A DNA stretch of 64,000 nucleotides from the sequence record MZ726791.1, one strand, 5' to 3'. This stretch comes from Escherichia phage vB_EcoM_ASO1A. Numbering within the stretch: position 1 is the stretch's first letter; every line of letters begins with the position of its first letter. Below the pieces are notes generated by a model. That model was not told the DNA's origin, ran no database searches, and worked only from the letters and a program-made list of their open reading frames with translations. Both the position numbers and the translations under genes were made by a program. Positions 27,189-27,332 of this stretch are shown piece by piece.

Positions 27189-27332
27189 AATTATCTTTGT
27201 AGATAAGTTATTAAGCTTACCTGTGAGTATGCGACCACAAAGGGTGAAAGGGTAAATTCTAGATTTAAACCCAAAAAGGCACATCGCTACAGACCTTAAG
27301 CAAGTCTGGGTAGCTTATCTACAAAGATAATT
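27189..27332. repeat. perfect 19-bp inverted repeat pair flanking about 106 bp
   Basis: AATTATCTTTGTAGATAAG at 27189-27207 and its exact reverse complement CTTATCTACAAAGATAATT at 27314-27332. Confidence 0.7.

What the first reader, a model, noticed from the sequence alone, without database searches (positions are those of the whole stretch)
27189..27332. Perfect 19-bp inverted repeat enclosing ~106 bp inside the tRNA cluster
AATTATCTTTGTAGATAAG (27189-27207) and its exact reverse complement (27314-27332) bracket a 106-bp segment immediately upstream of tRNA-Lys(TTT). A perfect 19-bp stem is far longer than terminator or processing hairpins in this genome, and suggests a structured RNA, a recombination/invertible site, or termini of a miniature inserted element.
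Basis: seen in the sequence. Interest (0 to 1): 0.45.

Follow-up and report, generated by a model that had tools for sequence, protein, structure and literature searches.

The report
Conserved structured RNA beside phage tRNAs
The 19-bp inverted repeat is the closing stem of a previously unannotated, conserved ~146-nt folded RNA that FelixO1-like phages transcribe inside their tRNA operon, just downstream of a Ro60-like RNA-binding protein gene and its Y-RNA-like partners; it is not a mobile or invertible DNA element.

Summary
The repeat is real: 19 perfect bp, 27189-27207 and 27314-27332, 106 nt apart, 4 nt before tRNA-Lys(UUU). With G.U pairs it extends to about 24 bp.

The window is a Felixounavirus. 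Relatives in three genera carry the element at the same site in two sequence types, A and B. The two types keep the stem through compensatory changes. They share a four-way-junction fold: long stem P1, then hairpins P2, P3 (invariant apex AUUCUAGAUU) and P4. Arm changes within type A are all A-to-G, giving G.U only on the + strand, so selection acts on RNA.

There are no target-site duplications, no other copies, no inverted forms, no coding signal and no Rfam match.

Context: the ORF at 24665-26080 is a structural Ro60 homologue. Four unannotated Y-RNA-like modules lie between it and the element, one holding a permuted tRNA-like domain. Their signature appears 80 times on the Ro60-gene strand, and never on the other strand, in 75 distant phage loci.

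Best reading: a processed, stable non-coding RNA of this operon. Its long stem insulates its fold and probably serves as an RNase III-type processing helix. Its trans function, perhaps with the Ro60-like protein, is inferred and not shown.

The parts
27188..27336 (+). The whole element ('H element'). It is a ~146-nt structured RNA domain lying between the 3' end of module M4 (GGUCUGG, 27181-27187) and the first base of tRNA-Lys (27337).
   Evidence: MFE fold z = -4.25 to -4.39. Covariance model R1 scores 143.9 bits on the + strand against 31.6 bits on the - strand. 29 distinct homologues were found in Felixouna-, Moogle- and Suspvirus.
27189..27212 (+). P1 5' strand.
   Evidence: 24 pairs are 98.1% paired across 18 distinct sequences, with 4 pairs changed on both sides. 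L006 and L122 carry an A-to-G change that gives G.U.
27309..27332 (+). P1 3' strand.
   Evidence: L010 and L131 carry an A-to-G change that gives U.G. The chimeric phage pSJ21 keeps perfect complementarity.
27217..27247 (+). P2, the 5' inner hairpin. It is the least conserved part and differs between types A and B.
   Evidence: Single-sequence folds. In type B a 5-bp hairpin takes this position.
27250..27272 (+). P3 hairpin. Its apex AUUCUAGAUU (27256-27265) is invariant in both types. In type B the helix is longer and covaries.
   Evidence: Covarying type B pairs are 58/96, 60/94 and 63/91.
27273..27289 (+). J3/4 linker. Part is left unpaired in the predicted fold, which also places a weak 3-bp hairpin here. 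27273-27283 is the most variable stretch within type A.
   Evidence: Distinct type A sequences differ mainly here: AAAAAGGCAC, AACAAGGCAC, AAAAAGACAC, AAAAAGTCAC, AAAAATGCAC.
27290..27308 (+). P4 hairpin, CAGAC-CUUAAGCAA-GUCUG. It abuts the P1 3' strand with no linker. Its stem and loop resemble the core of modules M1-M4.
   Evidence: 100% of cells paired, with a G-C to A-U change on both sides. AGACC-N(1-6)-AGCAA gives 9 hits against 1.05 expected, and 5 of them cluster at 26419-27303.
27215..27219 (+). Candidate pseudoknot strand GCUUA, pairing with UAAGC of the P4 loop (27297-27301).
   Evidence: Type A has GCUUA/UAAGC and type B has GCUAA/UUAGC, which is one compensatory U-A to A-U change. 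Two type A variants break the outermost pair. This is weak evidence resting on a single event.
27056..27187 (+). Module M4, a Y-RNA-like RNA. Its stem is AGACCGU/ACGGUCU with UUACAGCAA after the 5' strand. Its insert is a circularly permuted tRNA-like domain: anticodon-like hairpin 27092-27108, T arm 27112-27128, capped 7-bp acceptor 27129-27146, D arm 27149-27163.
   Evidence: Fold. The capped acceptor covaries in three versions: ACUCGGC/GUCGAGU, ACACGUU/GGCGUGU and ACCCUUC/GAAGGGU. Partial Rfam tRNA hit at 27079-27129. GenBank MZ726792 annotates 27008-27136 as 'tRNA-Thr-GGT'.
26415..27042 (+). Modules M1 (26415-26486), M2 (26581-26640) and M3 (26970-27042). They share the form CAGA-AGACCNN-NUWCAGCAA...NNGGUCU-GG and are interleaved with tRNA-Met, Asn, Tyr and Asp.
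   Evidence: Direct-repeat families D4 and D8. The strict signature gives 80 hits on the Ro60-gene strand, 0 on the other strand and 0.2 expected, in 45 of 75 distant loci.
24665..26080 (+). Ro60-like (TROVE + vWA) protein gene, 471 aa, directly upstream of the tRNA operon.
   Evidence: Pfam DUF2828 + DUF7788. PHROG 850 'RNA-binding protein'. AlphaFold2 model with pLDDT 82.9. The top 12 Foldseek PDB hits are all Ro60/TROVE, E 5e-9 to 3e-6. The Bas63 homologue gp130 was already noted as Ro60-like (bioRxiv 10.1101/2024.10.10.617714).
27337..27412 (+). tRNA-Lys(UUU). RNase P cleavage at its 5' end would set the 3' end of the H element (inferred).
   Evidence: ARAGORN and Rfam.
26099..26219 (+). 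Two sigma-70-like promoters (26099-26127 and 26190-26219) that head the transcription unit containing H. The next strong promoter is at 27587-27615. The scan found no + strand terminator-like site across H; the only one between the promoters (26091-26122) overlaps the first promoter.
   Evidence: A promoter is annotated in MZ726792 at the position equivalent to 27587.
28393..28483 (+). A second long hairpin of the same kind, directly before tRNA-Leu(UAG). It shares the 3' motif AAAGAU..UUUAAU|G with H.
   Evidence: It is conserved with compensatory and G.U changes in Susp- and Mooglevirus.

Best explanation
Shown: the inverted repeat is helix P1 of a conserved ~146-nt structured RNA domain on the + strand. 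The domain has a four-way junction: a 23-25-bp closing stem and three inner hairpins (P2, P3 and P4). It lies inside a tRNA operon that also carries four Y-RNA-like modules and follows a Ro60-like gene.

Inferred mechanism: the domain is transcribed from the promoters at about 26100 and 26190 as part of one long precursor. The long AU-rich helix forms co-transcriptionally and isolates the inner fold from the neighbouring tRNA-like module M4 and from tRNA-Lys. The domain is released by RNase P cleavage 4 nt downstream, at the 5' end of tRNA-Lys. It is also cut by a double-strand-specific or single-strand-specific endonuclease, most likely host RNase III within the roughly 24-bp helix, in the manner of the stems that flank 16S and 23S rRNA.

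The released RNA would keep part of P1 as a protective clamp. It is then a stable non-coding RNA whose conserved loops (AUUCUAGAUU in P3, CUUWAGCAA in P4) are its functional surface. The most likely partner is the phage Ro60-like protein or its RNP, because P4 repeats the AGAC(C)...AGCAA...(G)GUCUG core of the adjacent Ro60-associated modules.

The element is accessory rather than essential.
For: The repeat is real and non-random.

The same element sits at the same site in three genera, in two sequence types.

Across 18 distinct sequences, 98.6% of cells pair, against 26-47% when the partners are slid. Five pairs change on both sides, and several changes give G.U only. Within type B alone there is independent covariation in P3 and P4.

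All arm changes in the type A sequences are A-to-G, which gives G.U on the + strand only. The model scores 144 bits on + against 32 bits on -.

The chimeric phage pSJ21 mixes type A and type B arm pairs and stays fully complementary.

Variable positions fall in the J3/4 linker, much of which is predicted unpaired.

The scan found no + strand terminator-like site between 26220 and 27587, and strong promoters flank the unit.

A second long hairpin with the same 3' motif lies directly before tRNA-Leu and also covaries.

The upstream ORF has a Ro60 fold. The module signature is tied to that gene family: 80 hits on the gene strand, 0 on the other. The AGACC..AGCAA motif clusters at 26419-27303 and includes P4.

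Phage SP116 lacks the element and is viable.

In Bas63 the Ro60-like gp130 counters the Ppl defence system, and its authors suspected unrecognised Y RNAs among the tRNAs.
Against: No transcript ends, RNase III cleavage or protein binding could be tested here.

Most double changes in P1 trace to a single type A / type B split, so the number of independent events is small.

A minimal model built from distant modules did not score P4. In most type B elements the P4 stem reads AAACC/GGUUU, so the 'AG...CU' signature of the modules is not kept.

The canonical Ro60-binding motif GNCGAAN0-1G is absent from the element.

The element was found only in Ounavirinae, whereas the Ro60-like gene and its modules are far more widespread. 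The Ro60 system therefore does not need it.

Eight of the ten aligned type B stems (9 of the 15 distinct type B sequences found in all) carry one internal mismatch, so a perfect helix is not required.
Confidence: 0.55

Rival explanations
1. The element is a pure processing or insulating stalk. It has no function of its own: the long helix and inner hairpins serve only as an RNase III/RNase P processing signal and fold insulator that separates M4 from the Lys-Met-Ile tRNA batch, and the excised RNA is degraded.
For: A ~24-bp dsRNA helix lies exactly between two functional RNAs. A second long hairpin of the same kind, sharing the 3' motif, lies before tRNA-Leu, and a shorter one lies before the weak tRNA at 27820. 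The element is dispensable.
Against: Two loop sequences (AUUCUAGAUU and CUUWAGCAA) are invariant, or nearly so, across two types whose other inner sequence is only about half identical. The inner helices covary. A mere stalk needs neither. ESCO45 keeps the element intact although both neighbours are truncated.
Confidence: 0.25
2. The element is a miniature inverted-repeat mobile element, with the arms as terminal inverted repeats inserted into the tRNA cluster.
For: It has perfect 19-bp terminal inverted repeats around a short non-coding core. The whole hairpin has been exchanged between lineages whose flanks are about 99% identical.
Against: There is no target-site duplication; the flanks read ...GGTCTGGT | arm ... 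arm | TAATGGAAG. There is no other copy in the window, none in 5,426 E. coli genomes, and none elsewhere in the fetched phage loci. The position is the same in three genera. The G.U-only arm changes show selection on RNA pairing. The one known loss (SP116) arose by recombination between the T arm of M4 and the T arm of tRNA-Lys, not by precise excision.
Confidence: 0.03
3. The element is an invertible DNA segment or site-specific recombination site, with the arms as crossover sites for an invertase.
For: It consists of inverted repeats around a 106-bp segment.
Against: 195 GenBank relatives align colinearly across at least 80% of the query 27040-27340 as a single joined place on one strand. 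The type B inside resembles type A only in the same orientation: score 18.5, against -5 for the reverse complement and -7.6 +/- 4.2 for shuffles. No recombinase was found among the eight neighbouring ORFs that were scanned.
Confidence: 0.02
4. The element acts at the DNA level (cruciform, operator or origin), or it is a small protein-coding gene.
For: Some GenBank records annotate hypothetical proteins over this stretch. ORFs of 33 aa (+ strand, 27154-27255) and 107 aa (- strand, 26961-27284) exist.
Against: One-nucleotide indels among close relatives fall inside both ORFs. The ORFs run through conserved RNA modules. Substitutions preserve RNA pairing on one strand only, which a DNA cruciform or operator would not explain.
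Confidence: 0.03

Closest known systems
Bacterial and phage Y RNAs (YrlA/YrlB; Yrl1/Yrl2 of Thermus phage phiLo), the RNA partners of Ro60
   Same: It is encoded next to a Ro60-fold gene on the same strand. Its 5' and 3' parts pair into a long stem that closes a large structured interior. It is of broadly similar size (~146 nt, somewhat above the 80-130 nt of characterised Y RNAs). One neighbouring module (M4) has the T arm, capped acceptor and D arm layout described for YrlA (PMC4201824). Phage Ro60 homologues with adjacent Y-like RNAs are documented (PMC12135203).
   Different: The stem has no GNCGAAN0-1G or CGAA motif. There is no match to Rfam Y_RNA or YrlA models. It is embedded in a tRNA operon rather than being a free-standing gene. 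The protein belongs to a divergent family (Pfam DUF2828/DUF7788, not TROVE). Binding is untested.
RNase III processing stems that flank 16S and 23S rRNA in bacterial rrn operons, and RNase III sites of phage T7 early RNA (from established knowledge, not tested here)
   Same: Long-range complementary segments form a helix of 20 bp or more that encloses a functional RNA within a polycistronic precursor, next to tRNAs.
   Different: The enclosed RNA is only about 100 nt. Cleavage is not demonstrated. The helix is AU-rich and, in type B, often carries one mismatch.
Stable 'species 1' and 'species 2' RNAs of the phage T4 tRNA gene cluster (recalled from the older T4 literature; not retrievable in the paper library)
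   Same: They are non-tRNA stable RNAs of about 120-140 nt, co-transcribed and co-processed with phage tRNAs. Their function is unknown and they are dispensable.
   Different: There is no sequence relationship. The T4 RNAs end in tRNA-like acceptor stems, whereas this element is closed by a 24-bp helix and lies next to a Ro60-like system.
tRNA and tRNA-like cloverleaf RNAs
   Same: It has a four-way junction with three hairpins in tRNA order. There is no linker between the last hairpin (5-bp stem) and the closing helix. There is a possible loop-to-junction tertiary pairing. The P3 loop UUCUAGA obeys anticodon-loop rules (U33, purine 37).
   Different: It lacks T-loop and D-loop signature nucleotides. 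Its 'acceptor' is 24 bp rather than 7 bp. It has no free CCA end. ARAGORN and the Rfam tRNA model do not call it.

Membership tests
Y RNA (Ro60-associated ncRNA) | Encoded adjacent to a Ro60 (TROVE+vWA) gene | tested here: met
   The element lies 1.1 kb downstream of ORF 24665-26080 on the same strand, in the next transcription unit. That ORF's model matches only Ro60 structures over its full length.
Y RNA (Ro60-associated ncRNA) | The 5' and 3' regions pair into a long stem closing a large internal loop or second module | tested here: met
   A 24-bp P1 helix closes a ~96-nt interior and is supported by covariation. The true RNA ends are not mapped.
Y RNA (Ro60-associated ncRNA) | Ro60-binding motif GNCGAAN0-1G / CGAA in the stem (PMC4201824, PMC12135203) | tested here: not met
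   The motif is absent from 27188-27336. The only instance in the region is at 27109 in M4, and it is not conserved.
Y RNA (Ro60-associated ncRNA) | Match to curated Rfam Y_RNA / YrlA models | tested here: not met
   There was no such hit at E <= 1 in 25500-32000, and none at gathering score in 7 distant loci.
Y RNA (Ro60-associated ncRNA) | Physical binding to the Ro60 protein | not testable with these tools
   This needs RIP/CLIP or EMSA with the product of ORF 24665-26080.
Ro60-associated 'AG-N5-NUW-CAGCAA...N5'-CUG' modules (defined here) | 7-bp stem starting AG/ending CU, then 3 nt, then CAGCAA, with a 3' G | tested here: inconclusive
   P4 has AGAC(C)/(G)GUCU-G with AGCAA 3-4 nt after the stem. 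However, the stem is only 4-6 bp, the motif reads A/UAGCAA rather than CAGCAA, type B mostly has AAACC, and model R2 gave no hit.
Miniature inverted-repeat transposable element | Target-site duplication flanking the terminal repeats | tested here: not met
   The flanks are GGTCTGGT and TAATGGAA, which share no direct repeat.
Miniature inverted-repeat transposable element | Multiple dispersed copies, and empty sites in relatives | tested here: not met
   It is single-copy in the window and absent from the E. coli genomes. In relatives it occupies a single locus in the tRNA operon, directly before tRNA-Lys wherever that gene is intact. The one deletion seen is a T-arm recombination.
Invertible DNA segment | Both orientations present among genomes; a cognate invertase nearby | tested here: not met
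   Only one orientation is seen. No recombinase was found among the neighbouring ORFs scanned.
RNase III processing helix | Double-stranded RNA of about two helical turns (>= 20 bp) within a precursor | tested here: met
   There are 19 Watson-Crick pairs plus 5 further pairs, giving 24 bp. It lies between M4 and tRNA-Lys in a unit where no + strand terminator-like site intervenes.
RNase III processing helix | Staggered cleavage by RNase III in vivo or in vitro | not testable with these tools
   This needs rnc mutant hosts or purified enzyme.
tRNA | Conserved D-loop and T-loop nucleotides, 7-bp acceptor stem, detection by tRNA models | tested here: not met
   ARAGORN and Rfam RF00005 do not call 27188-27336.
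Intrinsic terminator | GC-rich hairpin followed by a U tract | tested here: not met
   The terminator scan does not list it. The stem is AU-rich and is followed by UAAUGG.

The most novel reading that the evidence does not exclude
The element is a new class of tRNA-shaped accessory RNA. It would have a four-way junction, coaxial P1/P4, a junction-to-loop pseudoknot acting as an 'elbow', and an anticodon-like loop UUCUAGA. It would work together with the phage Ro60-like protein and the newly recognised CAGCAA modules as an anti-defence ribonucleoprotein, for example as a decoy or adaptor in the Ro60-dependent counter to the Ppl system reported for Bas63.
Probability: 0.15. Interest if true: 0.85.

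Novelty: new variant of a known kind. Interest (0 to 1): 0.6.

Why it matters
FelixO1-like phages are common therapeutic and typing phages. Their 'tRNA region' is annotated as tRNAs plus spurious small ORFs. This work shows that the spacers hold conserved structured RNAs.

One of these RNAs is the element behind the finding. The others form a family of Y-RNA-like modules whose signature tracks a divergent Ro60-like gene across very distant phages.

A recent preprint found that this gene in Bas63 defeats the Ppl defence system and guessed that Y RNAs hide among the tRNAs. The coordinates given here make that guess directly testable, by identifying which RNAs to delete, pull down or probe.

The work also flags a likely wrong tRNA annotation: 'tRNA-Thr-GGT' in GenBank MZ726792 corresponds to the permuted tRNA-like domain of M4.

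Tried and rejected
1. Rfam, E-value mode on 25500-32000 and gathering mode on 7 distant loci, found no family for the element or the modules. The sub-threshold tmRNA, permuted-tmRNA, MIR473 and Dicty class I hits were judged spurious.

2. A PDB sequence search with the Ro60-like ORF found nothing. Only the fold comparison worked.

3. Covariance model R1 for the element found no homologue in 75 distant Ro60-like loci. The family is confined to Ounavirinae in the data reachable here.

4. Minimal module model R2, built from distant phages with the inserts removed, detected neither M1-M4 nor P4 in the window. It was too short and too weak, so 'P4 is a module' remains only a resemblance.

5. Three of the 20 metagenome pattern hits (L118, L120, L123) and one viral hit (L011) were chance matches.

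6. The canonical Y-RNA motif GNCGAAN0-1G occurs once, at 27109 in M4, but is not conserved in relatives, so it was treated as coincidence.

7. Neighbouring ORFs were scanned for RNA-repair or recombinase genes, and none was found.

8. Literature searches for Felixounavirus transcriptomes and for T4 RNase III/tRNA processing returned nothing usable. The supplement of PMC4201824 is not held.

9. The MITE, invertible-segment, terminator, coding and DNA-cruciform readings were considered and rejected, as set out under the rival explanations.

Full report
**Observation**

The sequence AATTATCTTTGTAGATAAG is at 27189-27207 and its exact reverse complement is at 27314-27332, 106 nt apart. With up to three mismatches allowed, the 19-mer occurs only at these two places in the 64-kb window, against 0.08 expected. 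tRNA-Lys(UUU) starts at 27337. The repeat lies in a 428-nt stretch without tRNAs, between tRNA-Asp (26831-26908) and tRNA-Lys. Folded as RNA, the arms extend with G.U pairs to a 24-bp helix, 27189-27212 with 27309-27332. The region folds better than all 200 shuffles, with z about -4.3.

**Source genome**

The window is a Felixounavirus. It is 100% identical over 801 nt to Escherichia phage vB_EcoM_ASO1B, and about 250 related GenBank phage records match.

**What relatives show**

- The Asp-to-Lys spacer has the same length (428-438 nt) in Felixounavirus, Mooglevirus and Suspvirus.
- At the position of the repeat there are two sequence types.
  - Type A is the window's type and the type of most Felixounaviruses.
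  - Type B occurs in Henu11, Sf15, SUSP2 and Moogle. It also occurs in the Felixounavirus DaR-2019b, whose flanks are about 99% identical to the window.
- The two insides are homologous only in the same orientation: score 18.5, against -7.6 +/- 4.2 for shuffles and -5 for the reverse complement.
- The arms differ by paired changes, U-A to C-G at two positions and G-C to C-G at a third.
- Both types fold into the same architecture:
  - a long closing helix P1;
  - a variable 5' hairpin P2;
  - a hairpin P3 with an invariant apex AUUCUAGAUU;
  - a hairpin P4 (CAGAC-CUUWAGCAA-GUCUG) that abuts the 3' strand of P1.

**Pairing statistics**

- On 18 distinct sequences, 33 pairs (P1, the P3 apex and P4) were scored. 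98.6% of cells pair, against 26-47% when the partners are slid. Five pairs change on both sides.
- Within type B alone, P3 covaries at three pairs and P4 at one.
- After a metagenome scan there are 29 distinct copies, all of type A or type B.
- Every arm substitution within type A is A-to-G, giving G.U on the + strand only. The variable positions fall in the J3/4 linker.
- The covariance model scores 144 bits on the + strand and 32 on the - strand.
- These results establish a structured RNA on the tRNA strand.
- Caveat: most double changes in P1 go back to the single split between types A and B.

**Natural variants**

- Phage pSJ21 is a chimera. Its outermost arm pairs are type A, while its inner arm pairs and inside are type B. 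The arms remain perfectly complementary.
- ESCO45 keeps the element intact although most of M4 and most of tRNA-Lys are deleted.
- SP116 has lost 27126 to about 27396 by recombination between the T arm of M4 and the T arm of tRNA-Lys. The element is therefore dispensable.

**What it is not**

- There is no target-site duplication.
- There is no other copy in the window, in 5,426 E. coli genomes, or at other sites of the fetched phage loci.
- No inverted form exists among the relatives.
- It is not terminator-like.
- One-nucleotide indels in close relatives rule out the overlapping small ORFs.
- No Rfam family matches.

**Context**

- ORF 24665-26080 (471 aa) matches Pfam DUF2828 + DUF7788 and PHROG 850. 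Its AlphaFold2 model has pLDDT 82.9, and its best 12 PDB matches are all Ro60/TROVE proteins aligned over their full length, with E from 5e-9 to 3e-6.
- A preprint had already noted that the Bas63 homologue gp130 is Ro60-like, lies upstream of the tRNAs and counters the Ppl defence. Its authors speculated that some annotated tRNAs are Y RNAs (bioRxiv 10.1101/2024.10.10.617714).
- The spacers of the first tRNA transcription unit hold four modules, M1-M4. This unit runs from the promoters at 26099 and 26190 to the next strong promoter at 27587. No + strand terminator-like site lies across the element; the only one in the unit (26091-26122) overlaps the first promoter. The modules have the form AG-N5, then NUW, then CAGCAA, an insert, then N5'-CU-G.
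- M4 (27056-27187) ends one nucleotide before the element. Its insert is a circularly permuted tRNA-like domain: an anticodon-like hairpin, a T arm, a 7-bp acceptor capped by a loop, and a D arm. This is the YrlA layout (PMC4201824). The capped acceptor covaries in three versions. GenBank MZ726792 annotates part of it as 'tRNA-Thr-GGT', which is probably wrong.
- In 75 distant phage loci that encode relatives of the Ro60-like protein (38-47% identity), the strict module signature occurs 80 times on the gene's strand and never on the other strand, with 0.2 expected from shuffles. It is present in 45 loci, in about two-thirds of cases within 1 kb of the gene, and the stems covary fully. Rfam has no family for these modules.
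- They are therefore good candidates for the Y RNAs of this Ro60 family. That is inference, because binding is untested.

**Link between the element and the modules**

- P4 repeats the module core: AGAC(C), then 3-4 nt, then AGCAA, then (G)GUCU-G.
- The pattern AGACC-N(1-6)-AGCAA gives 9 hits in the window against about 1 expected, and five of them cluster at 26419-27303.
- The link is weak for three reasons. A minimal model built from distant modules did not score P4. Type B mostly has AAACC/GGUUU. The conservation of the P4 loop may instead reflect a candidate 5-bp pseudoknot with 27215-27219. That pseudoknot reads GCUUA x UAAGC in type A and GCUAA x UUAGC in type B, which is a single compensatory change.

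**Second hairpin**

A second long hairpin at 28393-28483 lies directly before tRNA-Leu. It shares the 3' motif AAAGAU..UUUAAU|G with the element and covaries in Susp- and Mooglevirus. A shorter hairpin at 27780-27814 precedes a weak tRNA. Long helices directly 5' of tRNA batches therefore recur in this operon. This favours a role in processing or insulation.

**Mechanism proposed**

The structure is shown; the rest is inferred.

- The domain folds co-transcriptionally, and P1 isolates it from the tRNA-like M4 and from tRNA-Lys.
- RNase P at 27336/27337, together with an endonuclease acting on the ~24-bp helix (most plausibly RNase III, by analogy with the rRNA processing stems), releases a stable RNA of about 100-146 nt.
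- Its invariant loops form the functional surface, possibly for the Ro60-like RNP.
- Confidence that this is a conserved structured RNA on the + strand is about 0.9. Confidence in the full mechanism is about 0.55 or lower, and in the Ro60 link taken alone about 0.3.

**Novelty**

The Ro60 similarity of the protein is already in a preprint. The element itself, the module family and the permuted tRNA-like M4 are, as far as Rfam and the searchable literature show, undescribed. The kinds of thing involved are known: non-tRNA stable RNAs in phage tRNA operons, Y-RNA-like partners of Ro60, and long processing helices. I therefore file the finding as a new variant of a known kind.

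Noticed in passing
window 24665-26080 (+): This 471-aa ORF (Pfam DUF2828+DUF7788, PHROG 850) has a full-length Ro60 (TROVE+vWA) fold. Its top 12 PDB matches are all Ro60, including the Ro60 of Thermus phage phiLo. The family is very widespread in phages, with 2,546 hits at E <= 1e-3 among the scored candidates.
   Followed up: yes
window 26415-26486, 26581-26640, 26970-27042, 27056-27187; also L038-L112: A family of unannotated RNA modules has the form AG-N5, NUW, CAGCAA ... N5'-CU-G. The strict signature gives 80 hits on the Ro60-like gene's strand, 0 on the other strand and 0.2 expected, in 45 of 75 distant phage loci. The stems covary fully, and most modules are 47-69 nt long. 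They are probably the Y RNAs of this Ro60 family and are not in Rfam.
   Followed up: partly
L039 9642-9675, L044 1764-1796, L048 2859-2891, L084 9907-9944: Minimal 33-38-nt hairpin versions of the module end 11-16 nt (57 nt in L084) before the start of the Ro60-like gene. They could be autoregulatory binding sites in the mRNA leader.
   Followed up: no
window 27092-27163 (inside M4): This is a circularly permuted tRNA-like domain (anticodon-like arm, T arm, loop-capped 7-bp acceptor, D arm) whose acceptor covaries in three versions. The GenBank record MZ726792 calls 27008-27136 'tRNA-Thr-GGT', which is probably a false tRNA call. With its 7-bp acceptor, the domain could be an RNase P substrate like M. 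smegmatis YrlA.
   Followed up: partly
window 28393-28483 (+): A second long hairpin (26-nt arms, predicted paired throughout as RNA with G.U) lies directly before tRNA-Leu(UAG). It is conserved with compensatory changes in Susp- and Mooglevirus. In some relatives a different tRNA follows the same UUUAAU leader, so hairpin and leader behave as a unit.
   Followed up: partly
window 27780-27898 and 28047-28121: A short hairpin (27780-27814) with the same 3' motif precedes a weak tRNA-like sequence at 27820-27898. Rfam tRNA scores it 31.7 bits, just over threshold, and ARAGORN does not call it. Another weak tRNA-like hit lies at 28047-28121. These are possible degenerate or unusual tRNAs.
   Followed up: no
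L113 (pSJ21), L114 (ESCO45), L115 (SP116), L002 (DaR-2019b): The tRNA/Y-like region is a recombination hotspot. Whole-hairpin exchange between types, a chimeric hairpin, and deletions by recombination between T arms of different tRNA-like units are all seen. An HNH homing endonuclease gene lies next to tRNA-Asp in pSJ21.
   Followed up: partly
window 26916-26969 (+): Two adjacent hairpins (GAGAGGGCUAUUUAGCCCCUCCC and CUCCCUUAAAGGG...CCUUUAAAGGAG) follow tRNA-Asp and are nearly invariant across three genera. Their function is unknown. They are not terminator-like.
   Followed up: no
window 27256-27265: The invariant P3 apex AUUCUAGAUU contains the palindrome UCUAGA, so a kissing-loop dimer is possible. 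Read as a 7-nt loop UUCUAGA, it has the format of an anticodon loop with CUA.
   Followed up: no
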